Notes: a model not told the origin generated them from the letters alone. A DNA stretch of 21,730 nt from Pseudomonadota bacterium (GCA_023229365.1 JALNZK010000002.1:318343-340072); one strand, 5' to 3'. Shown: positions 2,990-16,508, counted from the first letter of the stretch. Numbers and translations: made by a program.

Positions 2990-3059
2990 TTTATTCTCCT
3001 TGTGGTTAAATACCCACGTTTTAGATACAATAGATACTCATGCCCTTTTAAATTTATGC

Positions 3060-3101: not shown

Positions 3102-3635
3102 ATGGAACCAACAAAACGAGAATATCAGGTTATTTTGGGCACTATTATGGGCGGCTCATCAATCATCCGGCCTAAAAAGGGAAAGCATTGTTATTTGTCC
3201 ATGCGAGACAAAAGAGCCAATTGGCTAGAGTTCAAAGCAGATCAATTAGCTCGATACGCCTCGCCAGAGCCTTTTACGATTGAAAAAACAAATCGTTGGC
3301 ACTCTTTGGCATATCCTATTTTCGATGAATTTAGAGAAAAGTTTTATAATCACAAAAAACGTTGTGTCGATATCGAAAGCCTTACTTTCTGGGACGTGGG
3401 ATTGTCTATTTGGTTTGGAGATGTGGGCAAGTTCGAAAATGGACAAGTTATATTAAACACTCACATCTGGGGCGAAAAAGGATCAGAAACCCTGGCAAAA
3501 TATTTCGAATATTGTCAATGGCCTGCTGAAATATTTAAAGACCGCACCTATTACCGTTTACGATTGAACAGAGAGGCTTCTGTGCATTTTATGAATACGG
3601 TTAGCCCTCATTTGCCATTCCCATTGACTCAATAA
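3102..3635 (+). CDS. LAGLIDADG-family homing endonuclease (free-standing; first catalytic motif degenerate)
   Basis: Two LAGLIDADG-like motifs: ILGTIMGGSSI and LSIWFGDVGKF. Family-typical surrounding pattern: CYLSMRDKRANWLEFKADQL, FREKFYNHKKR, ILNTH, YYRLRLNREAS. Confidence 0.75.
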   Translation: MEPTKREYQVILGTIMGGSSIIRPKKGKHCYLSMRDKRANWLEFKADQLARYASPEPFTIEKTNRWHSLAYPIFDEFREKFYNHKKRCVDIESLTFWDVGLSIWFGDVGKFENGQVILNTHIWGEKGSETLAKYFEYCQWPAEIFKDRTYYRLRLNREASVHFMNTVSPHLPFPLTQ

Positions 3636-3671: not shown

Positions 3672-3956
3672 ATGATTAAATTTTTAAAACTAATTACCGG
3701 CGAAGACACATTGGCAGAAGTTACAGAAGAAACCGAATTGCATTATGTTTTAAAGAACCCAATGCGATTTATACCCACCGAACAGGGCATAGGTATAGCC
3801 CCCTTCGCAATGTTTGTGAAAAAGGGCTCTACAATCACAATTGATAAAGATAAGGTTATTTTTGCCGCCGATCCAGAAGATGAAATAGCCAATGTTTATA
3901 ATGAAAAATATGGCTCTGGGATCGTTGTGCCACCCTCAAGCATACAATTACCATGA
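3672..3956 (+). CDS. Hypothetical protein (94 aa)
   Basis: Strong SD (tggaggattacaaATG). The stop overlaps the next start (ATGA). Confidence 0.6.
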   Translation: MIKFLKLITGEDTLAEVTEETELHYVLKNPMRFIPTEQGIGIAPFAMFVKKGSTITIDKDKVIFAADPEDEIANVYNEKYGSGIVVPPSSIQLP

Positions 3957-4543
3957 CAATGCCACATTTAATGAATTGCCCACATTCACCTGATGGGTGG
4001 TGCCTTGATTGCGTCAGTAAACAAGGCAAGCTTTTGCTTGAAATTGACCAAGCCATACAAGACCCGGATAAATTTCTGGCGATGGTTGCTAATCGTGGCC
4101 GACCATTAATCGGCGTTTGCGTTTGCATTTGTCGTCGTGAACCATCCAGCGGCAAAGTTCTTTTGCACAAAAGAAAAGGAAAGCACGCTCCTGGCACATG
4201 GGCATTCCCTGGCGGGCATATGGAAAAATGGGAATCCTTTGAAGGAGTTGTTCGTAGAGAACTAGAAGAAGAAGCAGGGCCAGATATAGAAATTGATAAT
4301 TTGCAATTTTGGACTGTTGCCAATACTCGATTTCATGATGAAGACAAGCATTATGTTGTTCTTTTTATTATGGCTGATTGGGTATCTGGCGAGCCAAAGA
4401 TTATGGAGCCAGAAAAATGTGAATGCTGGGAATGGTTTGATTGGAATGATCTTCCTTCACCACTGATGATGGGGATACAAGATATTGTTGATCGTAAACT
4501 GAGCCCTTTTGACTATGGAGGCGAACACGAAACATTATGCTAG
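3953..4543 (+). CDS. Nudix hydrolase with a Cys-rich N-terminal extension
   Basis: Nudix box GGHMEKWESFEGVVRRELEEEAG (GX5EX7REUXEEXGU). N-terminal CPHSPDGWCLDC cluster. Confidence 0.9.
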   Translation: MTMPHLMNCPHSPDGWCLDCVSKQGKLLLEIDQAIQDPDKFLAMVANRGRPLIGVCVCICRREPSSGKVLLHKRKGKHAPGTWAFPGGHMEKWESFEGVVRRELEEEAGPDIEIDNLQFWTVANTRFHDEDKHYVVLFIMADWVSGEPKIMEPEKCECWEWFDWNDLPSPLMMGIQDIVDRKLSPFDYGGEHETLC

Positions 4544-5109
4544 AAGTAGAAGCTAAATTCATTGTGGATAGTTTTGATTTATTGGAAGCCAAATACCAAT
4601 TTGATGGCCCCGTGTTACAAAGAGATATATATTATCAGCATCCCTCTCGTGATTTTATGAAAACTGGAGAGTGGTTCCGTGTGCGAAGAATTTTTAAGGG
4701 CATTCCCTGTGCGGAAAACCTCGGGTGCGAAGAAATTCATCTGTGTCACAAAGGATCAAATCAAGGCTCATCTGATGTTAAAAGTCGCAGAGAGATAGAA
4801 TTTTCTGTGCCTATGGACATAATTGAACTTTTGCAAATCCTTGATTTTGCAGAATTGATACGAGTGGAAAAATACCGCCGATCAGCCGTGGTTACACCAA
4901 CTAACGATAGTGGCGAACCCACCTTTACCATAACATTAGATGAAGTTTTGGGATTGGGAAAATATGTAGAAATTGAAATGCTGGTTCTCAAAGAAGAATT
5001 TAAAGCAGGAGCAATTGAAGCCATTAATGACATAGCCAAAAAACTGGGACTCACCCAGCCAGAGAAACACGGATATGCTAAATTAATGCTGAAAAAAGAG
5101 AAAAAATGA
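4537..5109 (+). CDS. CYTH-domain protein (triphosphate tunnel metalloenzyme / CyaB-ThTPase family)
   Basis: N-terminal MLEVEAKF carries the ExExK signature. Length and basic/acidic strand pattern fit CYTH. Overlaps its neighbours by 7 nt and 4 nt. Confidence 0.8.
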   Translation: MLEVEAKFIVDSFDLLEAKYQFDGPVLQRDIYYQHPSRDFMKTGEWFRVRRIFKGIPCAENLGCEEIHLCHKGSNQGSSDVKSRREIEFSVPMDIIELLQILDFAELIRVEKYRRSAVVTPTNDSGEPTFTITLDEVLGLGKYVEIEMLVLKEEFKAGAIEAINDIAKKLGLTQPEKHGYAKLMLKKEKK

Positions 5110-7232: not shown

Positions 7233-7877
7233 CTAGTGCATTGCACTAATGTGTAAGTCACGCAGGGTAATGGACCATGATTGATGCCGTGGCGATGATG
7301 CCAAGAAGAAATCAAGGATTTCCTCTGAGGCTGCCGCTACTGTCAACATGATGATGTTACGAGCCAAGGGATAGTCGCAAACGTCGCCACCGCTGTCCTT
7401 TGGCACCTTGTAGCGATCATCCCATACAACCTCGCCATAATCTTCAAATAATCCAGTGTGCAGACATGGAATCTTCTTTGCCCGGCAATGGGTTTGAACA
7501 ATTTGCCGTGCAGCATTATTATCAAAACAATCCAACACCAATGCTGAGCCACGCAGCATTTTATCCACGGTAGCGGCGGTCAATTCCTTGTCCACGGTGT
7601 CAATTTCAACACCAATGTTGCCAAACACCTTCTGTTTGGCGGCGGCAACTTTCAAAGCTCCAACATCCCGCTCATTCCAAAACTGGGTGTTTAGATTATG
7701 AGTATCGACACGATCTTTGTCAATACCACGGAGATTGGCAAATCCTTGTCGAGAAAGATTGTCAAGCAAATTGCTACCCAGGGCTCCTACACCACAAATG
7801 GTGATTAGACCTTGCAATTTCTTGGCATAATCCTTGCCTCGGTAAATTTCTTCATGATGGAATTTATTCGTTGCCAT
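7233..7877 (-). CDS. ThiF/MoeB/E1-like adenylyltransferase (short, 214 aa)
   Basis: Rossmann Gly loop ICGVGALGSNL. GIDKDRVDTHNLNTQ (compare the ThiF/E1 D.D.V..SNL.RQ pattern). LDCFDNNAARQ. Cys in GGDVCDYP. SD ggaggaagaaaATG. Confidence 0.88.
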   Translation of the reverse strand: MATNKFHHEEIYRGKDYAKKLQGLITICGVGALGSNLLDNLSRQGFANLRGIDKDRVDTHNLNTQFWNERDVGALKVAAAKQKVFGNIGVEIDTVDKELTAATVDKMLRGSALVLDCFDNNAARQIVQTHCRAKKIPCLHTGLFEDYGEVVWDDRYKVPKDSGGDVCDYPLARNIIMLTVAAASEEILDFFLASSPRHQSWSITLRDLHISAMH

Positions 7878-8025
7878 TTTCTTCCTCCACTATTTCGTAA
7901 ACTGTGCCCCAAATCTTATCATGTGGATCGTAACGCATTTGTATATGATTGAAACTGCAATTGTCGGGATTTGGTCGAAATTCAAGCCATGCTTCAAATT
8001 CTGGTATGTAATTTGCCCGCAGCAT
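7864..8025 (-). CDS. Candidate small ORF (53 aa) between the JAB and E1 genes
   Basis: Manual translation: MLRANYIPEFEAWLEFRPNPDNCSFNHIQMRYDPHDKIWGTVYEIVEEENGNE. Overlaps the E1 start by 14 nt. More protein-like than the competing 78-aa frame 7890..8126, which overlaps the JAB 3' end. Neither frame is proven. Confidence 0.3.
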   Translation of the reverse strand: MLRANYIPEFEAWLEFRPNPDNCSFNHIQMRYDPHDKIWGTVYEIVEEENGNE

Positions 8026-8097
8026 AAATATCCAGCAACCCAAATATCTCTATATTTCACCAAATACTGATATTTGGTTTTACCAGTTGTTTTTATT

Positions 8098-8661
8098 TCA
8101 CTTGGGTTTGTCTGTTTCAATTTCATTCGCCACCTCTTCGCTCTCTAGGAGAGCACCCAAATTAATTGCAGAGTCTTGATCCCAATCAATGGCATGCCCC
8201 CCAAGCTCAACCTCTTCATCAAATAATGTCAAGTCATCCTCCACAACGACATTAGGTGTTGCCAAGCCATAGCAAGCCAGTGGCTTTTTGGGTGTAATTC
8301 CTACAATTAGTTGCCCAAAGCTCTTTAGAGTACGAATGGGAATTGGAGGTTGTTCATCGCTGTAATACAAATAACCCTTGAGCCCATTGACTCCTTCGAT
8401 CAAACAAACGAGAGGCTTGCCAAACGACAACACCCACTGTGCCATTGTAGCATCATCCCGTGGGCTTGGGGAGGCGATCATTCCGGGGTGCGTGTGATAA
8501 AACCCAACCACATCCCCATATTTTTCTTCACGATCCATGACCCACTTATATGGAAAATCCACGGAGCCAGGGTGCCCTTCGCTTTCGTGCGAAACATGAC
8601 CCCACCACATTCTCCTGTGATTTCCGCCCGTCAAAATCCACGATTGTTCATTTTGTCTCAT
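8098..8661 (-). CDS. JAB/MPN (JAMM) metalloisopeptidase
   Basis: Complete JAMM motif HTHPGMIASPSPRD (HxHx7Sx2D) with upstream acidic residues. The ATG directly abuts the upstream stop (TAAATG). Confidence 0.9.
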   Translation of the reverse strand: MRQNEQSWILTGGNHRRMWWGHVSHESEGHPGSVDFPYKWVMDREEKYGDVVGFYHTHPGMIASPSPRDDATMAQWVLSFGKPLVCLIEGVNGLKGYLYYSDEQPPIPIRTLKSFGQLIVGITPKKPLACYGLATPNVVVEDDLTLFDEEVELGGHAIDWDQDSAINLGALLESEEVANEIETDKPK

Positions 8662-9177
8662 TTATTTTTCCCTTAGTCGTTTTATTGCTTCTTGACGTTG
8701 TTCTCGGGTTTGTTCTTCTAGTTCTTGAGTAAACAATTTCCCGCTCATGTAATATTCTGTACCCCAAGCTGGGCACATTTTGTGTAATTCAGGACGACCA
8801 CAACCAGGGCACACACAATCTTTTGACTCTTCTATGTCCCAGTCCATTGACTCTACAATTTCTTTCACATTCTCTTCGATAAATTTCTCACAAGCCTCTG
8901 GACCAATAGCTTCTCGCAATGCAGCAAACGGATTGCCTGTCGCTGCCCAGCGTGCCTCTTCTTCTTCCCAACACTCGTTTTGTCCACACTCTTTAACCTG
9001 ATCCCACAACAAAGCAACGGATGGGTGTTTGTCTTCTTCCCAATCACCACGTTCCAAAAATGCACAATAGCCGTCTTCTTGTTCAGCGTGGTCGGGGTGC
9101 TTGCTCCAATAAGGGCAAATGCCATTTGTATCATAGCAATATATTCCCTTCGGAATTAAACTCGGGTCTTTATTCAT
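8662..9177 (-). CDS. Cys/Trp/Glu-rich hypothetical protein (171 aa), probable metal-binding
   Basis: Start set at the ATG at 9177 (MNKDPS...), which forms an ATGA overlap with the GIY-YIG stop. Cys clusters: YCYDTNGICPYW...GYCAF and CVCPGCG...MCPAWG. Confidence 0.6.
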   Translation of the reverse strand: MNKDPSLIPKGIYCYDTNGICPYWSKHPDHAEQEDGYCAFLERGDWEEDKHPSVALLWDQVKECGQNECWEEEEARWAATGNPFAALREAIGPEACEKFIEENVKEIVESMDWDIEESKDCVCPGCGRPELHKMCPAWGTEYYMSGKLFTQELEEQTREQRQEAIKRLREK

Positions 9178-9893
9178 AATGTTTTCTTTTCCAACACTTT
9201 CCAATTTTTGTAATGTGCGATTTTGCCAGCAGCTACACTCCACATATGCCCAGAATTCAAATTGTGTTCCCTTGAAAACTGCTCCAAATTACTTGTCTCG
9301 AATACTTCTCCATCTGGCGATGCTATTTTGTATGCGAATTTCAATTTTTTGTTTCGCATTTTTTCTTTTGACTTATCCGAATACTTTCTTCCTGTGGCTG
9401 ATTTGGCAATTTTGTTTTTGTGTTCCTCTGTAAGCGTTTTGCCAGTGTTAAATAGCGATAACTTCTTTTTTGTTTTATTGCTTACTTTGTGTCCTAAATG
9501 ACTCGATCTAAGCTTTTTAATTGTTGCTTGGGTTACTTTTTTCCCTTTGTTGCCGATGGATATTTTGCGTTTAACCTCCTCAGATATTACGCCTCGGGCA
9601 TTTCCAAGTTTTAAATTATAACCATTTGGAGAAAGGGTTTTTAATTCACAGCCCCAATACACTTCCCTGGCATCTATTTCTTCTTGTGTGCCATTTAATT
9701 TTTCTAACACCACAATCTTAAAATGTTCTGGTCCGTATTTTCGAATGGCAAGGACAATCGGCATTAGTTTGGTGTTATTCCACCTTGCCTCCGCACAGTG
9801 TCTTTTGAACCTTTCTTCTGCCGTTTTCCAAGTTTGCCCAACATAGACCTTTGCATTAAGATCATTTATTATTTTGTATATAATTGCTTCCAT
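9174..9893 (-). CDS. GIY-YIG homing endonuclease (I-TevI/Seg-like) with NUMOD3-type repeats
   Basis: IIYKIINDLNAKVYVGQT (GIY...YIG), R/H/E core, NGYN. C-terminal repeated S.GNKGKK / SSHLGHKVS / NTGKTLTEEHKNKI DNA-binding motifs. Confidence 0.9.
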   Translation of the reverse strand: MEAIIYKIINDLNAKVYVGQTWKTAEERFKRHCAEARWNNTKLMPIVLAIRKYGPEHFKIVVLEKLNGTQEEIDAREVYWGCELKTLSPNGYNLKLGNARGVISEEVKRKISIGNKGKKVTQATIKKLRSSHLGHKVSNKTKKKLSLFNTGKTLTEEHKNKIAKSATGRKYSDKSKEKMRNKKLKFAYKIASPDGEVFETSNLEQFSREHNLNSGHMWSVAAGKIAHYKNWKVLEKKTL

Positions 9894-9945: not shown

Positions 9946-10401
9946 TTATAATTTGTCAAATTGGTCTCTGATCTTCATTAGAAGTTTTCCAAGATGGTTT
10001 TCCCCAACTCCGTTGCATACCCCAAAAAACGTGTCGTGCCACCAATTTCCTTCTACTAATTCCGCCTTGCCAGTGGCAAGAAGCTGATTGCATAATTGTG
10101 GATCGGAGAATTTTTGCACAAGCAAATCTTCCATAATCCCTAAATTAATATTTTGCCAATCGGGTCGTTGGTGTCCAGCTTTTTTGAATACAGCCGCAAG
10201 CTTCTTTGCTTTTCCAGGGGTAATAGCGTCTTGAATTTGCTTACGCAATGCCGGGTCTAAAAATTTAGCAGCTTGGTAAGCGTGTTCGGTGGAAATATAT
10301 TTTTCACCATCCAAAACTACCGGCGTGGACAGTATGGCAAAATTCGACAAATACCTGTATTCACCATCAAATGAATCAATTTTTGTTTGCTTGTCATTCA
10401 T
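9946..10401 (-). CDS. NADAR (YbiA/DUF1768) domain protein
   Basis: FDGEYRYLSNF, YISTEHAYQAAKF, GNWWHDTFFG and GENHLGKLLMKIR match the NADAR signature. Confidence 0.88.
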   Translation of the reverse strand: MNDKQTKIDSFDGEYRYLSNFAILSTPVVLDGEKYISTEHAYQAAKFLDPALRKQIQDAITPGKAKKLAAVFKKAGHQRPDWQNINLGIMEDLLVQKFSDPQLCNQLLATGKAELVEGNWWHDTFFGVCNGVGENHLGKLLMKIRDQFDKL

Positions 10402-13066: not shown

Positions 13067-13097
13067 TAAGAAAAGCCCTGGGGACAATCCCCAGGGC
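13066..13097 (-). terminator. Rho-independent terminator after the Ro60-like gene
   Basis: 10-bp stem gccctgggga(13075-13084)/tccccagggc(13088-13097), 3-nt loop, then ttttcttattt on the minus strand. It lies 26 nt past the stop at 13123. Confidence 0.7.
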
Positions 13098-13122
13098 TTC
13101 CCAGACAAGTTCGCAAAGCTCA

Positions 13123-14691
13123 CTACGCAACTTTTCTCTTCGGCAAAGGCCAACTCATGATTTCCATGAGCAAGTCAAGCTTACTGGGCTTGCACAGGAA
13201 TTTCACCAGTCCAGGCAAGCTGTAGTAGTCGCCGGTAAATTGCCAAGCGTCTACTTCGATGCCTTTGACTCGACCTTCTTGCTCCAATTGATCCGTAGCA
13301 TTAGGAGTCTTGACAATGCAAATGTTGGGGAATGCATTCAAGGCTTGACAGTATTTTTGATAAATGTCAAAGAACTTGGGAGCAGTATTTTCCCCTTCAT
13401 CCGTTACCAAAATGATCTGTTCGACCATGTATTTCTTTTGTAGCATAAACTGCAAGCCAACGCCGCAGGAAGTCCAACCGCTTGCACGGATGCCTTCAAA
13501 TGCTTTCTCCCAAGCTGCCAAGTCTTTTCCTTGGCTAGTGATGGGATAGGCGATTGTATCTTGAGCATACGCATACAAAGGAACACCATCCTCCATAACC
13601 GTAGACAATAGGGAGCCAATTCGCTTGCCCAATTCAATGGTAGCGGCTTGAGAACCCGACTTGTCCACAAACAAAGCCGTGGGGCGACTGATACGACCCT
13701 TGGACTTAATTTGTTGGTCAGCAACGGCTTCCAATTGTTGCTTTACTTCATCCGAAACTCCAGGTGCCGCCTTGACGGCTTCCAAGGATTTCAATGCAGC
13801 CATTCGCTTATCGCCCTTGGCCACAACAAGTTTTTCCTCAATCAATTGCTTGAGATCGGGGTTGTCGAACACGCCACGCTTTTTCAAGCTGCCGATGCTG
13901 TTGACCAACTCTTGCGAAGTCATTACTTCCAACAAAGCCGCAATAACAGGCGGTGTCATGGATTCGATTACCGTACTGGCAATCCGGTACGGAATTTTAT
14001 TTTCCACGATCACTCGGGCTTGGTCAGTCGGTGAAGTTGCCTTGGCCAACTCCTTGATTAGGAACGCTTTGGAATCAGCAGGCGGCTTATCATCGAACAA
14101 CACGGCTTGAGCCCGGTCGGTCGGCTTGCGGTGTCCGAAAGCATACAAACTCTTCATATATTTTCGAGCACCAACGCAGACACTATCGAACCAATCTTTA
14201 TCCAATTCTCGCTCTTGCAGATAACGATTGATTTCCGTCATTACGGAATTGGGCAATTGTCGGAACAAGCCCGTTTTGACTTTCTTGGCAGGAGCAGCCG
14301 GTTGTGCCGGTGCGGCAGCAACTCTACGACCCCGAACCATGCGTGCGGGTGCCGGTGCGGCAGCCTTCGGCTTTCGTTCGGTGATATAGTTGCCCAAAAT
14401 GAACTTCAATACCCGTGTCAATTGATAGGGCGGAAGCTCACGCAACATGGCCAAACCAACTTCTCGGTGCCCGTCAAACTTGGACAGACACAAAGAAATA
14501 ATAAACATTTCTTTGTGGTCACGAATTTCGCCGGTATCATTATACCAAGCCGCCAATTGCGAATAGAACCGAGGATCATCGGTAATCATTCGCTGGTGTT
14601 CTGGATAAATAGCGGCCAGATCACGGTGAGGCGTGGTCAATAGAGTGTTGAGAATTCGGAGTCGCACATCTTGTTCGGTATTTTCGTTCAT
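13123..14691 (-). CDS. Ro60/Rsr-like protein: helical-repeat (TROVE-like) N-terminal region plus C-terminal vWA domain (522 aa)
   Basis: C-terminal vWA with MIDAS FVDKSGSQ (DxSxS), ASGWTSCG and ILVTDEGEN, in the same order as human Ro60 VDVSASM / GGTDCS / IVFTDNET (recalled). The N-terminal helical segments RDHKEMFIISLCLS and REVGLAMLRELPPYQLTRVLKFI parallel Ro60 KQEPMLFALAICSQ and [24 protein letters not shown]. Total length is close to Ro60 (~540 aa). Start moved to 14691 (MNENTEQ, SD aaagggatatgaaATG) because the ATG at 14727 lies inside a structured RNA element. Ala/Pro/Arg-rich insert KPKAAAPAPARMVRGRRVAAAPAQPAAPAKK. Confidence 0.65.
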   Translation of the reverse strand: MNENTEQDVRLRILNTLLTTPHRDLAAIYPEHQRMITDDPRFYSQLAAWYNDTGEIRDHKEMFIISLCLSKFDGHREVGLAMLRELPPYQLTRVLKFILGNYITERKPKAAAPAPARMVRGRRVAAAPAQPAAPAKKVKTGLFRQLPNSVMTEINRYLQERELDKDWFDSVCVGARKYMKSLYAFGHRKPTDRAQAVLFDDKPPADSKAFLIKELAKATSPTDQARVIVENKIPYRIASTVIESMTPPVIAALLEVMTSQELVNSIGSLKKRGVFDNPDLKQLIEEKLVVAKGDKRMAALKSLEAVKAAPGVSDEVKQQLEAVADQQIKSKGRISRPTALFVDKSGSQAATIELGKRIGSLLSTVMEDGVPLYAYAQDTIAYPITSQGKDLAAWEKAFEGIRASGWTSCGVGLQFMLQKKYMVEQIILVTDEGENTAPKFFDIYQKYCQALNAFPNICIVKTPNATDQLEQEGRVKGIEVDAWQFTGDYYSLPGLVKFLCKPSKLDLLMEIMSWPLPKRKVA

Positions 14692-14716
14692 TTCATATCC
14701 CTTTCTAAATAAAAAT

Positions 14717-14797
14717 AGCCCATCCAAGTCTGGTCAGCTTTGATTGGAAACGATATGGAAGTTTCTGTTTGTAAGCTGGGCCGGTATGGGATGGGCT
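14717..14797 (-). ncRNA. Y-RNA-like module 0 (minimal: conserved stem motif closed by a ~35-nt insert, no tRNA-like domain)
   Basis: 9-bp terminal stem agcccatcc/ggatgggct. Carries both conserved strands (minus sense 5' ..CCCAUACC..CAGCUUACAAACAG and 3' GCUGACCAGACUUGGAUGGG). Followed on the minus strand by AUUUUUAUUU. Confidence 0.55.
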
Positions 14798-15127: not shown

Positions 15128-15253
15128 TCCGTCCAAGTTACAAAAACTGTTTTTGGTAAACAATGCAGGAATTGAACCAGCATTCTTCAGTTTTCAAGAC
15201 TGACGCTCAACCATTGAGCTAATTGTTTGTAAGTTTTAGTGGTATGGGACGGA
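15128..15253 (-). ncRNA. Y-RNA-like module 1: conserved stem motif flanking a complete tRNA
   Basis: Terminal stem tccgtcc(15128-15134)/ggacgga(15247-15253). The conserved 5' and 3' motif strands bracket the tRNA at 15154-15228. Confidence 0.6.
15154..15228 (-). tRNA. tRNA or tRNA-like, anticodon UGA, class I (short variable arm), CCA encoded
   Basis: Minus sense: AAACAAT-TA-GCTC-AATGGTT-GAGC-G-TCAGT-CTTGAAA-ACTGA-AGAAT-GCTGG-TTCAATT-CCTGC-ATTGTTT-A-CCA. U8, A14, G18G19, U33 and the T-loop TTCAA are present. One T-stem mismatch. A Ser-type anticodon without the long variable arm is anomalous. Confidence 0.55.
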
Positions 15254-15256
15254 AAG

Positions 15257-15385
15257 TGGAGGGTGTTGGATTCGAACCAACATTTTTTCGTTTTCAGTGA
15301 AAAAAGTTACCTTTTGTTTGTATGTCTCTCAGGTGTGGGACAATTGCTTGTCCAAGTTTGGGAAACTGAACGTTTTTAACCCTCC
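15257..15385 (-). ncRNA. tRNA-like RNA (anticodon loop CUGAAAA, GAA/Phe-type) with the conserved stem-loop inserted in the D-loop (module 2)
   Basis: 7-bp acceptor GGAGGGT/ACCCTCC. T arm GTTGG-TTCGAAT-CCAAC. Anticodon arm present. The D region is replaced by ...GTTCAGTT[motif hairpin, loop AGCAAUU]...AAGGTAAC. No CCA. Confidence 0.55.
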
Positions 15386-15395
15386 AAAGTATCAG

Positions 15396-15522
15396 CGGGG
15401 AAGATGGGATTCGAACCCATAATTTTTCCTTAACAGGGAAACTTTTACCAATTGTTTGTATGTCTCTCAGGTGTGGGATGGTCGCCCATCCAAGTTTGGG
15501 AAACTGAACTTCTAACTTCCCC
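15396..15522 (-). ncRNA. tRNA-like RNA (anticodon loop CUGUUAA, GUU/Asn-type) with the conserved stem-loop inserted in the D-loop (module 3)
   Basis: Perfect acceptor GGGGAAG/CTTCCCC. T arm ATGGG-TTCGAAT-CCCAT. Anticodon stem TTTCC/GGAAA. D region ...GTTCAGTT[hairpin closed by GGAUGGG-CGA-CCAUCC]...TTGGTAAAAG. Confidence 0.55.
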
Positions 15523-15612
15523 ATGTGCCCGGTTTATAATTCTCTGCCTGCAACCGGAAACCCGGCAGAAAAGCCTCCAGTTATTGGTTTATCCCAAGAG
15601 GCGAGTAATCAG

Positions 15613-15738
15613 ACCCGGTGGTAGGAGTCGCACCTACAATCTTTTCCTTAGGATGGAAACGCTGTTTGTACGTCTCTCAGGTTTGGGATAATTTCTTATC
15701 CGAGTTTGGGAAACTGTTTGCTGTTTAGCTTCACCGGG
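15613..15738 (-). ncRNA. tRNA-like RNA (anticodon loop AUCCUAA, CCU/Arg-type) with the conserved stem-loop inserted in the D region (module 4)
   Basis: Acceptor CCCGGTG/CACCGGG. Anticodon stem TTTCC/GGAAA. Non-canonical T-loop TGCGACT (G at position 55). 3-bp D-stem GCT/AGC enclosing the motif hairpin (loop GAAA). Confidence 0.5.
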
Positions 15739-15743
15739 ATATT

Positions 15744-15902
15744 CATAAGGCAAACATTTGATCGTCCAAGTCGAAGAAACTGTTTTTTGCAACAATGTTG
15801 GATTCGCACCAACTACCGAAACTTTATGGAAGTTTTGCTCTACTGATGAGCTAATTGTTTGTAAGTTCCGTCAGTATGGGACGATCAAATGTTTGCCTTA
15901 TG
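15744..15902 (-). ncRNA. Y-RNA-like module 5: 24-bp perfect terminal stem plus conserved motif flanking a degenerate tRNA-like domain (CAU loop)
   Basis: cataaggcaaacatttgatcgtcc(15744-15767) is the exact reverse complement of 15879-15902. The inner tRNA-like domain (15789-15860) has a D-loop ATCAGTA lacking GG, anticodon loop UCCAUAA (C33) and T-loop TGCGAAT. Confidence 0.6.
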
Positions 15903-15913
15903 TTGATTTTACC

Positions 15914-16090
15914 GACGCAAGCAAGTGTTGGCCCGTCCAAGTCGAAAAAGCTGTTTCACATAGTGACAGTTTAATAGACTGTTGCCTTTACCATTAGGCT
16001 AAAACACATTTTGGCGTGTTTGTTGGATTCGAACCAACAGATTGTTTGTAAGCTCTGTCTGTGTGGGACGAGCAAACACTTGCCTGCGTC
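15914..16090 (-). ncRNA. Y-RNA-like module 6 with a circularly permuted tRNA-like domain
   Basis: Long imperfect terminal stem 15914-15938/16066-16090. Minus-sense order: motif 5' strand, T arm (GTTGG-TTCGAAT-CCAAC, 16022-16038), loop-capped helix AAACAC/GTGTTT (16002-16021), D-like arm with GG (15984-15999), ACAGT-CTATTAA-ACTGT (15966-15982), motif 3' strand. Confidence 0.6.
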
Positions 16091-16092
16091 AA

Positions 16093-16260
16093 CATCATCA
16101 AGCTTCCGTCTGTCCAAGTTGAAGAAGCTGTTCAACTTTTGACAGTTCCAATTACTGGTGCCTGACCGTTAGGCTACATTCCTTGCGGAATGATGGGAGT
16201 CGAACCCACTTATTTGTTTGTAAGCTCCGTCTGTATGGGACAGACGGAAGCTTGATGATG
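16093..16260 (-). ncRNA. Y-RNA-like module 7 with a circularly permuted tRNA-like domain and a GNRA-capped acceptor-like helix
   Basis: 23-bp perfect terminal stem 16093-16115/16238-16260. T arm 16193-16209. CATTCC-GCAA-GGAATG hairpin 16177-16192. D-like GCCT-AACGGTC-AGGC 16160-16174. CAGT-AATTGGA-ACTG 16143-16157. Confidence 0.6.
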
Positions 16261-16295
16261 TTTACAACTCAAATTGTCAAAGAACACAAAATTGG

Positions 16296-16480: not shown

Positions 16481-16508
16481 ATTATACGCCTTTTTTATTC
16501 CCTGTCAA
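16481..16508 (-). promoter_or_regulatory. Consensus sigma70 promoter (TTGACA-N16-TATAAT) driving the RNA array
   Basis: Minus strand: ttgaca(16508-16503)-16 nt-tataat(16486-16481). It points into 16475..15128, where no protein-coding potential is apparent. Confidence 0.65.

What the first reader, a model, noticed from the sequence alone, without database searches (positions are those of the whole stretch)
15914..16260. Two circularly permuted tRNA-like domains with loop-capped acceptor helices
In modules 6 and 7 the minus-sense order is: motif 5' strand, T arm, hairpin-capped acceptor-like helix (AAACAC..GTGTTT; CATTCC-GCAA-GGAATG with a GNRA tetraloop), D-like arm with GG, anticodon-like stem-loop, motif 3' strand. 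The tRNA shape is thus opened in the variable-loop region and closed at the acceptor end, so it cannot be aminoacylated but could mimic the tRNA elbow. Both modules are clamped by 23-25-bp terminal duplexes and are separated by only 2 nt. One locus therefore uses three different ways to join the same stem to a tRNA-like body (flanking, insertion, permutation). That argues selection acts on the combination of stem and tRNA shape rather than on decoding.
Basis: seen in the sequence. Interest (0 to 1): 0.8.

Follow-up and report, generated by a model that had tools for sequence, protein, structure and literature searches.

The report
Phage Y RNAs with permuted tRNA-like domains
Two adjacent ~170-nt RNA genes beside a phage Ro60-like gene fold as tRNAs with a capped acceptor end and a protein-binding stem leaving from the variable region; this is a new variant of the known YrlA class of tRNA-mimicking Y RNAs.

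Summary
On the minus strand, 16091-16262 and 15915-16089 each fold as: long terminal duplex, conserved bulged stem, T arm, loop-capped acceptor-like hairpin, U8-A9, D arm with GG, A26, 5-bp/7-nt anticodon-like arm, and the 3' stem strand. RNAfold z-scores are -9.8 and -6.6. Sixteen homologous modules from related uncultured huge-phage loci give 97% pairing, and 26 of 31 pairs show compensatory changes. The tertiary 15:48 pair also covaries. Opened at the acceptor and closed at the variable loop in silico, 15 of 18 modules are called tRNAs by ARAGORN.

The ORF downstream has a full-length Ro60 fold. [quoted passage not shown]

The differences from YrlA are these:
- The opening lies in the variable region and the anticodon arm is intact.
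- The GNCGAA motif is absent, and the Rfam YrlA match is 27.7 bits against a threshold of 69.
- The terminal clamps are 24-25 bp.
- The modules sit in an array that joins one stem to tRNA bodies in several topologies.

"Cannot be aminoacylated" is not secure for 15915-16089, whose cap loop reads G-CCA-AAAU. Verdict: new variant of a known kind. Its function is inferred, not shown.

The parts
16481..16508 (-). Sigma-70-type promoter TTGACA-16-TATAAT that drives the module array
   Evidence: 12 of 12 consensus match on the minus strand, directly upstream of the first module.
16242..16262 (-). Module A (GCAA-capped): 5' strand of the terminal clamp
   Evidence: Pairs with 16091-16111. With GUCC:GGAC this makes a 25-bp duplex in the MFE fold (coordinates).
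16215..16241 (-). Module A: 5' strand of the conserved bulged stem (putative Ro60-binding handle), GTCCCATACAGACGGAGCTTACAAACA
   Evidence: Terminal helix and upper stem covary in 16 class-A modules and in 144 distinct modules of all types. C-C-N-A-C and U-A-C are nearly invariant.
16193..16209 (-). Module A: T arm GTGGG-TTCGACT-CCCAT
   Evidence: Matches Rfam YrlA model positions 31-47. Stem pairs covary and the T54-A58 loop nucleotides are invariant.
16177..16192 (-). Module A: acceptor-like helix CATTCC/GGAATG (6 bp) capped by a GCAA tetraloop
   Evidence: MFE fold. All 7 helix positions show compensatory changes in homologues; caps are GNRA, UUCG or other loops. The orthologue L099:2252-2401 has CAGTCCC-GCAA-GGGATTG.
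16160..16176 (-). Module A: U8-A9 plus D arm GCCT-AACGGTC-AGGC with G18G19
16142..16159 (-). Module A: A26 plus anticodon-like arm CCAGT-AATTGGA-ACTGT (4 of 5 pairs, 7-nt loop, A in place of U33)
   Evidence: Five covarying pairs in homologues. The orthologue L099 has 5 of 5 pairs and U33.
16112..16130 (-). Module A: 3' strand of the conserved bulged stem, CAGCTTCTTCAACTTGGAC
   Evidence: A-C-U is invariant in 149 of 150 modules.
16091..16111 (-). Module A: 3' strand of the terminal clamp
16070..16089 (-). Module B (CCA-loop): 5' strand of the terminal clamp
   Evidence: Pairs with 15915-15934, 15+8 bp including GUCC:GGAC.
16043..16069 (-). Module B: 5' strand of the conserved bulged stem, GTCCCACACAGACAGAGCTTACAAACA
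   Evidence: The G-to-A change relative to module A is compensated by C-to-T in the 3' strand.
16022..16038 (-). Module B: T arm GTTGG-TTCGAAT-CCAAC, preceded by U48 at 16039
   Evidence: A15:U48 Levitt pair possible.
16002..16021 (-). Module B: acceptor-like helix AAACAC/GTGTTT capped by the 8-nt loop GCCAAAAT (loop 16008-16015), which reads discriminator-CCA plus a 4-nt spacer ending in U before G
   Evidence: N-CCA loops recur in L006, L053, L066 and L120.
15984..16001 (-). Module B: U8-A9 plus D arm GCCT-AATGGTAA-AGGC
15966..15983 (-). Module B: A26 plus anticodon-like arm ACAGT-CUAUUAA-ACUGU (5 bp, U33, A37, 'anticodon' AUU)
   Evidence: Un-permuted in silico, the module is called tRNA-Asn(att) by ARAGORN.
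15935..15953 (-). Module B: 3' strand of the conserved bulged stem, CAGCTTTTTCGACTTGGAC
15915..15934 (-). Module B: 3' strand of the terminal clamp
13123..14694 (-). Divergent Ro60 homologue (about 523 aa from the ATG at 14694-14696; the mechanical ORF starts at 14727), presumed protein partner of the stems
   Evidence: AlphaFold2 pLDDT 81.7, pTM 0.74. The 13 best Foldseek PDB hits are all Ro60, Rsr or phage phiLo Ro60 over the full length, E 6e-10 to 5e-7. Homologues hit Pfam vWA_Ro60. Weak sequence match to PDB 9kop/9l5y.
14717..14797 (-). Last module of the array: the same stem closing a simple hairpin, immediately upstream of the Ro60-like start codon
   Evidence: (33 bits with model R1).
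13070..13102 (-). Intrinsic-terminator-like hairpin after the Ro60-like gene, marking the end of the unit
   Evidence: 15-bp stem followed by a T run.

Best explanation
The two modules are phage-encoded Y RNAs of the YrlA type.

Shown:
- Each has a conserved bulged stem formed by its 5' and 3' parts, extended by a 24-25-bp clamp.
- Each has an inner domain with every secondary and key tertiary signature of a tRNA L-shape. The acceptor end is closed by a loop. The chain enters and leaves through the variable region, so the stem sits where a class II variable arm would be.
- They lie in a promoter-driven array on the same strand as, and 1.2-1.5 kb upstream of, a gene with a full-length Ro60 fold.

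Inferred:
- The array is one transcript. The long perfect duplexes let a double-strand-specific RNase (RNase III type) release the individual modules.
- The Ro60 homologue binds the invariant internal loop of the stem (5' CCNAC, 3' RACUY). This stabilises the RNA and carries a tRNA-shaped domain that cannot be charged.
- That domain is the effector end. It recruits or sequesters a protein that recognises whole tRNAs through the elbow and the anticodon arm. Candidates are a host exoribonuclease, as in Ro60/Y RNA/PNPase particles, or a tRNA modification, repair or cleavage enzyme.

I put about 0.8 on the identity as a Y RNA with a tRNA mimic. I put no more than about 0.4 on any single downstream partner.
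For: - Structure: MFE folds, z = -9.8 and -6.6.
- Covariation: RNAalifold on a plain MAFFT alignment of 16 modules recovers six helices, and 26 of 31 pairs carry compensatory changes. Pairing is 97.4% against 72.9% in shuffles (0 of 500 reach it) and 31-44% when partners are slid.
- tRNA signatures: U8, A14, T54-A58 invariant, GG in every D loop, and a covarying 15:48 pair.
- Un-permutation: ARAGORN of 18 modules as tRNAs.
- Core match: the T-capped helix-D core aligns to Rfam YrlA positions 31-81.
- Protein: Ro60 fold of the adjacent ORF.
- Handle: its helices covary in 144 distinct modules (94% paired, all 11 pairs with double changes), with invariant loop bases. One search listed 294 model matches in 97 sources, almost all on the Ro-gene strand.
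- Independent linkage: a search by RNA pattern alone found 13 more such modules, 7 with the Ro-like gene in the fetched stretch.
- Transcription signals.
- Strand: frequent G-U pairs (7 of 16 at one T-stem pair, 9 of 16 in the handle) fit only the minus strand.
- Precedent: YrlA is a closed-acceptor permuted tRNA mimic bound by Rsr. Phage phiLo Ro60 binds upstream-encoded Y-like RNAs and host PNPase.
Against: - No expression, binding or processing data exist for this locus.
- Defining YrlA sequence features fail. There is no GNCGAAN0-1G motif. The Rfam YrlA score is 27.7 against a gathering score of 69, and none of 16 related loci reaches it.
- The Ro homologue is so divergent that Pfam TROVE does not detect it. 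RNA binding at this stem is therefore by analogy only.
- Module A has A15/A48 and A33, so its mimicry is imperfect.
- The invariant UAC after the upper stem resembles the YUAY of YrlA. This allows a different 3D reading in which the handle, not the hairpin, stacks on the D stem.
- Long clamps are absent from 11 of 17 homologues, so RNase III-type release cannot be general.
Confidence: 0.75

Rival explanations
1. These are permuted tRNA genes whose products are opened at the acceptor cap by RNase P and 3' trimming. The result is chargeable two-piece tRNAs held together by the long stem, or re-ligated tRNAs.
For: - The module B cap loop is G-CCA-AAAU followed by G.
- L006 (7 bp, A-CCA-ACAU-G), L066 (7 bp, G-CCA-AUU-G), L053 (U-CCA-A) and L120 (loop exactly ACCA) carry N-CCA straight after the acceptor 3' strand, although their stems are unrelated in sequence.
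- Three of these have U(-1)/G(+1).
- Many caps sit on 7-bp stems.
- Anticodon loops keep U33 and R37.
- M. smegmatis YrlA is cut by RNase P and gains CCA in vivo.
Against: - Most caps are 4-nt GNRA or UUCG-type loops. Module A has a 6-bp stem and A33.
- Module B would read AUU with A34. With its CCA in register the stem is only 6 bp; at 7 bp the CCA is out of register.
- No ligation route for a variable-region junction is known in bacteria or phages, as noted for YrlA.
- A stem of 35 bp or more at the variable arm is untested on ribosomes.
Confidence: 0.1
2. The modules are decaying leftovers of tandem tRNA duplications inside a phage tRNA region and have no function of their own.
For: - YrlA-type RNAs are proposed to have arisen from dimeric tRNA transcripts.
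- CCA relics in some caps fit that origin.
- Related loci are packed with tRNA genes.
Against: - The architecture is kept in more than 30 modules whose pairwise identity falls to 48% (median 61%).
- Compensatory changes occur in every helix.
- Loop nucleotides are invariant, and the association with the same handle and the same gene is constant.
Confidence: 0.03
3. The stem is mainly a generic stability and processing cassette. The tRNA-shaped cargo acts as a decoy for host enzymes that attack tRNAs, such as anticodon nucleases. It does not act as a tether that brings a partner to Ro60.
For: - The same handle carries very different cargos: real tRNAs, three tRNA-like topologies and plain hairpins in the window.
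- In related loci it carries a 23S rRNA GTPase-centre mimic (L088:3870-4069) and a ~320-nt unknown RNA (L001).
- A complete anticodon arm is retained, unlike in YrlA. Loops are identical in sequence to real ones, for example CUUUUAA, CUGAUAA and CUUGAAA (matches judged from my own knowledge of E. coli tRNAs).
- A closed acceptor end would keep a decoy out of translation.
Against: - No defence or nuclease data exist, and no RNA ligase or repair gene was found in the window.
- 'Anticodons' are scattered over many identities, and some are non-natural (AUU, AAG with A34).
- Ro60 is known as a partner-tethering platform.
Confidence: 0.25

Closest known systems
YrlA Y RNAs (S. Typhimurium, M. smegmatis, mycobacteriophages; Rfam RF02553; crystal structure PDB 6cu1)
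   Same: - Encoded upstream of, and on the same strand as, a Ro60 gene.
- 5'-to-3' order: T arm, loop-closed acceptor-like stem, UA, D arm.
- Conserved elbow nucleotides and a covarying Levitt pair.
- Conserved YUAY-like UAC after the stem.
- Acceptor-like stem of variable length; some members can be opened at the cap.
   Different: - In YrlA the chain ends form the anticodon stem and there is no anticodon loop. Here a closed 5-bp/7-nt anticodon arm follows the D arm, and the stem leaves from the variable region.
- No GNCGAAN0-1G motif.
- Both strands of the Ro-type helix are conserved.
- 24-25-bp clamps.
- Rfam score far below threshold.
Metazoan and Deinococcus Y RNAs (Yrn1)
   Same: - A stem made from the 5' and 3' ends with a conserved bulged helix on both strands. 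GUCC-C-A / U-UGGAC here compares with GGUC-C-GA / UUGACC there (the comparison is from my own knowledge).
- Modular design: a Ro-binding stem plus an effector domain.
   Different: - No significant match to Rfam Y_RNA.
- The effector domain here is a complete permuted tRNA shape. Yrn1 has the native D-anticodon-T order and only a partial D arm.
Circularly permuted tRNA genes of Cyanidioschyzon merolae and some archaea
   Same: The 3' half (T arm, acceptor 3' strand) precedes the 5' half. The acceptor is initially closed by a short intervening loop, and the chain ends are paired.
   Different: - Those precursors are circularised at a bulge-helix-bulge motif and opened to give decoding tRNAs.
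- Here the paired ends form a conserved protein-binding stem with a 6-nt/5-nt internal loop, not a bulge-helix-bulge.
- The junction is in the variable region.
- Most caps are stable tetraloops.
Thermus phage phiLo Ro60 with Yrl1 and Yrl2 (PDB 9kop, 9l5y)
   Same: A phage Ro60 with Y-like RNAs encoded directly upstream. It is the closest solved sequence relative of the window protein.
   Different: - Yrl1 and Yrl2 are simple stem-bulge-stem RNAs defined by a CGAA motif, with no tRNA-like domain described.
- There are two RNAs there, against an array of nine stems here.

Membership tests
YrlA (Rfam RF02553; Chen et al. 2014) | T arm, then closed acceptor-like stem-loop, then D arm, with tRNA-invariant nucleotides | tested here: met
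   Local alignment to model positions 31-81. Invariant U8, A14, T54-A58 and GG in every D loop. Covariation.
YrlA (Rfam RF02553; Chen et al. 2014) | Encoded within 4 kb of a Ro60 orthologue, on the same strand | tested here: met
   The modules lie 1.2-1.5 kb upstream of ORF 13123-14694 on the minus strand. Its model matches Ro60 structures over the full length.
YrlA (Rfam RF02553; Chen et al. 2014) | GNCGAAN0-1G motif near the 5' end (putative Rsr contact) | tested here: not met
   A regex search of both modules finds none. The only CGAA is in the T loop of module B.
YrlA (Rfam RF02553; Chen et al. 2014) | 5' and 3' parts pair to form the anticodon-stem equivalent, with no anticodon loop | tested here: not met
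   A closed 5-bp/7-nt hairpin follows the D arm after one nucleotide. All five of its pairs covary.
YrlA (Rfam RF02553; Chen et al. 2014) | Reaches the Rfam gathering score (69 bits) | tested here: not met
   27.7 bits, E = 0.0021, local match only. No gathering-level YrlA hit in 16 related loci.
YrlA (Rfam RF02553; Chen et al. 2014) | Modified by TruB and DusA; bound by Rsr in vivo | not testable with these tools
   Needs pseudouridine and dihydrouridine mapping and immunoprecipitation.
Y RNA in the broad sense (Ro60-bound ncRNA) | Stem formed by the 5' and 3' parts that contains a conserved bulged or internal-loop helix | tested here: met
   Helices at alignment columns 6-10/363-367 and 22-28/350-356 are 94% paired, and all 11 pairs have double changes in 144 distinct modules. 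Loop bases are invariant. Caveat: that alignment was fitted to the model.
Y RNA in the broad sense (Ro60-bound ncRNA) | Physical binding by Ro60 | not testable with these tools
   Only gene linkage is available.
Canonical tRNA (Rfam RF00005) | Contiguous cloverleaf with free acceptor ends | tested here: not met
   ARAGORN and Rfam call only 15157-15228 and 15789-15860. Module B gives an artefactual sub-threshold tRNA match of 27 bits. After un-permutation in silico, module B is called a tRNA and module A is not.
Permuted tRNA genes (C. merolae type) | Bulge-helix-bulge motif at the paired termini for endonuclease cleavage and ligation | tested here: not met
   The MFE and consensus structures show a 4-bp helix, a 6-nt/5-nt internal loop and a 7-9-bp helix. 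They do not show 3-nt bulges spaced by 4 bp. This was judged by inspection only.
Permuted tRNA genes (C. merolae type) | Matures into a decoding, aminoacylated tRNA | not testable with these tools
   Needs RNA end mapping and charging assays.

The most novel reading that the evidence does not exclude
The conserved stem is a universal Ro60 'handle' that huge phages weld onto many translation-related RNA shapes: real tRNAs, tRNA bodies in at least four topologies, a 23S GTPase-centre mimic, and larger unknown RNAs. Within this system, the permuted modules whose caps read N-CCA, including 15915-16089, are opened by RNase P. That would produce two-piece tRNAs with a free CCA end that stay tethered to Ro60 through a variable-arm stem. 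These would be chargeable or factor-binding tRNAs that carry a protein handle.
Probability: 0.1. Interest if true: 0.9.

Novelty: new variant of a known kind. Interest (0 to 1): 0.6.

Why it matters
The partner and purpose of the tRNA-like domain of bacterial Y RNAs have been open since 2014.

This clade offers a natural experiment. The Ro-like protein search returned more than 2,000 matches (E <= 0.001), mostly in metagenomic contigs up to 595 kb. In this clade the same Ro60 handle is joined to tRNA bodies at the acceptor end, in place of the D arm, at the D/anticodon junction and in the variable region.

What stays constant across these topologies is the elbow, the acceptor/T stack and often an intact anticodon arm. 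That constant part delimits what the unknown partner must recognise.

The clade also extends Ro60/Y RNA biology to a branch that Pfam TROVE, PHROGs and Rfam YrlA all miss. Finally, it provides defined substrates, one tetraloop-capped and one CCA-loop-capped, for testing RNase P opening of Y RNAs.

Tried and rejected
- The search for related loci with the single Ro-like protein found nothing. An alignment of homologues was needed.
- A relaxed structural descriptor gave 276 hits against about 122 per shuffle. It was discarded in favour of the strict descriptor (18 against 0) and of anchor-only selection.
- Rfam at gathering threshold sees only the two true tRNAs. The MIR172, snoRNA and other low-score hits are artefacts of the long duplexes.
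- Pfam, PHROGs and a sequence search of PDB barely detect the Ro-like protein. Only fold comparison was decisive.
- The closest relative (P0001, 95% identical) has no DNA on file. Only one GenBank phage record, LR756511.1, carries the family.
- Two Y RNA reviews (PMC10870794, PMC6047535) are not held. Literature searches found no description of the variable-region variant or of such arrays.
- Protein-coding readings of the region (mechanical ORFs 15758-15997 + and 15294-15524 -) were rejected. Reasons: compensatory base-pair changes and strand-specific G-U pairs.
- The raw pattern scan of genomes gave mostly ordinary tRNAs. Only 17 of 163 anchors passed the structural filter.

Full report
**What is there**

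Read on the minus strand, the window carries a perfect sigma-70-type promoter at 16508-16481. It is followed by an array of RNA modules, a second promoter at 15117-15090, a 76-codon ORF and one more module. Then comes a 523-534-codon ORF (13123-14694/14727), closed by a terminator-like hairpin at 13102-13070.

Nine modules share a 5' motif (RTCCCAYAC...YTTACAAACA) and a 3' motif (CAGYTTYTTCRACTTGGAY). The finding concerns two of them:
- Module A, 16091-16262.
- Module B, 15915-16089.

**Check of the observation**

Unconstrained RNAfold of each module returns exactly the proposed arms. In order these are:
- a terminal duplex (25 bp in A; 15+8 bp in B);
- an internal loop and a 7-9-bp upper stem;
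- a multiloop holding a T arm, a capped hairpin that abuts the T stem, a D arm and a 5-bp/7-nt hairpin one nucleotide after the D stem.

Energies lie 9.8 and 6.6 standard deviations below dinucleotide shuffles.

A strict descriptor for this arrangement found 18 instances in 669 kb of window plus related loci, all on the strand of the downstream gene. It found none in shuffled sequence.

**Comparative test**

The downstream protein has more than 2,000 relatives, mostly on metagenomic contigs of up to 595 kb and without annotation. I fetched 98 loci around such genes.

I selected modules only by the 5' motif lying next to a T arm. Sixteen of 17 anchors carried the whole architecture.

A plain MAFFT alignment of 16 modules has median pairwise identity 61% and minimum 48%. 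RNAalifold on it predicts six helices: two in the stem, then T, capped helix, D and anticodon-like. Twenty-six of 31 pairs show compensatory changes.
- Counting gives 97.4% standard pairs, against 72.9% after shuffling partners (0 of 500 shuffles reach it).
- Sliding the partners gives 31-44%.
- The capped helix has unrelated sequences in every lineage. Its caps are GCAA, UUCG or other short loops.

A covariance model built from this alignment scores the two window modules at 119 and 113 bits. It also recovers non-seed members, including L099:2252-2401. That module is the orthologue of module A in the closest relative with DNA, and its cap is CAGTCCC-GCAA-GGGATTG.

A search of GTDB genomes and IMG/VR by RNA pattern alone, filtered by structure, added 13 further modules. 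Seven have the Ro-like gene within the fetched stretch.

**tRNA likeness**

U8, A14, T54-T55-C56-R57-A58 and U60 are invariant, and every D loop contains GG. Position 26 is a purine.

The tertiary Levitt pair covaries: G15 goes with C48 in 2 of 2 cases, and A15 with U48 in 12 of 14. The exceptions are module A and L018.

I joined the sequences in silico across the variable region and opened them at the cap. ARAGORN then of 18 as tRNAs. Module B is called; module A is not, having a 6-bp stem and A33.

The anticodon-like loops mostly keep U33 and R37, but the three central bases differ from lineage to lineage. This argues for selection on shape rather than on decoding.

**The partner gene**

Pfam does not detect a TROVE domain, and sequence matches to PDB are weak. 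The AlphaFold2 model (pLDDT 81.7) nevertheless matches Ro60 structures over its full length. The 13 best Foldseek hits are human and Xenopus Ro60, Deinococcus Rsr and Thermus phage phiLo Ro60, with E 6e-10 to 5e-7 and TM 0.51-0.62.

The shared stem behaves like a protein-binding handle. Across 144 distinct modules of all types its two helices are 94% paired, and all 11 pairs carry double changes. The internal-loop bases (5' C-C-N-A-C, 3' R-A-C-U-Y) and a following U-A-C are present in 148-150 of 150 sequences (that alignment was fitted to the model). Binding itself is inferred.

**What is already known**

Bacterial YrlA Y RNAs are encoded next to Ro60. [quoted passage not shown] In YrlA the chain ends form the anticodon stem and the anticodon loop is missing. 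M. smegmatis YrlA is cut by RNase P and receives CCA. Phage Ro60 proteins with upstream Y-like RNAs are also known.

The general idea in the finding is therefore not new. The modules here differ in five ways:
- A complete anticodon arm follows the D arm, so the opening lies in the variable region.
- The GNCGAA motif is absent.
- Both strands of the stem are conserved.
- The Rfam YrlA model matches only locally, at 27.7 bits against a threshold of 69. It reaches threshold in none of 16 related loci.
- Long clamps (21-28 bp) occur in 6 of 17 modules.

I found no paper describing this variant or such arrays.

**The cap loops**

Most caps are tetraloops. Module B has G-CCA-AAAU before G. L006 (A-CCA-ACAU-G on 7 bp), L066 (G-CCA-AUU-G on 7 bp), L053 (U-CCA-A) and L120 (loop exactly ACCA) also have discriminator-CCA directly after the acceptor 3' strand, on stems of unrelated sequence.

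This fits the published origin from dimeric tRNA transcripts. It also leaves open that some modules are opened by RNase P. For module B, then, 'cannot be aminoacylated' is unproven. Against decoding, its anticodon would be AUU, and the register of its CCA fits only a 6-bp stem.

**Context and mechanism**

The same handle flanks true tRNAs: tRNA-Ser(UGA) at 69.9 bits with encoded CCA, and a tRNA-Met-like gene at 46.3 bits. It replaces the D arm in three tRNA-like modules, where the handle is itself capped by GCGA, GCAA or an 8-nt loop. It also closes plain hairpins.

In GC-rich relatives a further topology occurs: 5' motif, anticodon arm, T arm, capped acceptor, D arm, 3' motif. There the opening is at the D/anticodon junction.

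My best account is as follows. The array is transcribed as one RNA. The 24-25-bp perfect duplexes allow release by a double-strand-specific RNase (inferred from the known substrate length of RNase III). The Ro60 homologue binds the handle. The closed tRNA-shaped domain then recruits or sequesters a protein that recognises whole tRNAs.

Rivals are a decoy or stability-cassette role, maturation into two-piece tRNAs, and evolutionary debris. The last is contradicted by the covariation.

**Verdict**

This is a new variant of a known kind (YrlA-type Y RNA) in a large, unannotated clade of huge phages. Its function is inferred only.

Noticed in passing
L088:3870-4069 (Rfam hit 3939-4032): A module with the same 5' and 3' handle motifs encloses a sequence that matches bacterial 23S rRNA positions 1076-1161, the GTPase-associated centre, at 55 bits (gathering score 50). 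It looks like an rRNA-domain mimic carried on the Ro-type handle.
   Followed up: partly
L001:4560-4890: A ~320-nt GC-rich insert, apparently structured, sits between a 5' handle motif (...GAGCTTACAAACA) and a closing GAACGGTATC that pairs with GATACCGTC. No Rfam family matches it at gathering threshold.
   Followed up: no
L081:4645-4782, L085:870-1010, L094:873-1010, L064:571-708 and many GC-rich loci: A second permuted topology occurs: 5' motif, anticodon arm (for example TTCGG-CTCATAA-CCGAG), 5-nt variable loop, T arm, 7-10-bp capped acceptor, UA, D arm GCTC..GAGC, 3' motif. The opening is at the D/anticodon junction. It scores 44-60 bits with model R1.
   Followed up: partly
window 15258-15752 (minus strand): Three tRNA-like modules have a 7-bp acceptor stem, an anticodon arm and a T arm. 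In each the D arm is replaced by the handle, which is closed at its 'terminal' end by GCAA, GCGA or AAGAAATT.
   Followed up: partly
window 15157-15228 and 15789-15860 (minus strand): Two tRNA genes, Ser-UGA and Met-CAU-like, lie between the handle strands. Both use the conserved motif ACAAACA as their acceptor 5' strand (AAACAAT). The Ser gene encodes A-CCA.
   Followed up: partly
window 14717-14797 (minus strand): A further handle closing a small hairpin lies immediately upstream of the Ro60-like start codon and overlaps the mechanical TTG start at 14727. It could be a plain Y RNA or an autoregulatory site in the mRNA leader.
   Followed up: partly
L120 (minus strand, module near position 3003 of the reverse complement): This permuted module has a 7-bp acceptor-like stem capped by exactly ACCA (ATTCTCC-ACCA-GGGGAAT). 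RNase P cleavage before G1 would leave a mature CCA 3' end. A Ro-like gene is adjacent.
   Followed up: partly
L128 (contig CAVWFQ010000010.1, 1.85 Mb, Phycisphaerales MAG) and other Planctomycetota or Chloroflexota MAG contigs: Class-A modules occur on contigs binned as bacterial, one of them 1.85 Mb long. The system may also sit in bacterial chromosomes or prophages, or the binning may hint at hosts.
   Followed up: no
L001:4435-4510: ARAGORN reports a tRNA with an 8-nt anticodon loop (four-base anticodon GAAA) inside the array of the 595-kb phage LR756511.1.
   Followed up: no
window 3102-3635 (+), 9174-9893 (-), 7233-8661 (-), 9946-10401 (-), 3953-5109 (+): The neighbourhood encodes LAGLIDADG and GIY-YIG homing endonucleases, a ThiF-like E1 next to a JAB deubiquitinase-like protein, a NADAR domain protein, a NUDIX hydrolase and a CYTH protein. 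No RNA ligase or RtcB was found.
   Followed up: no
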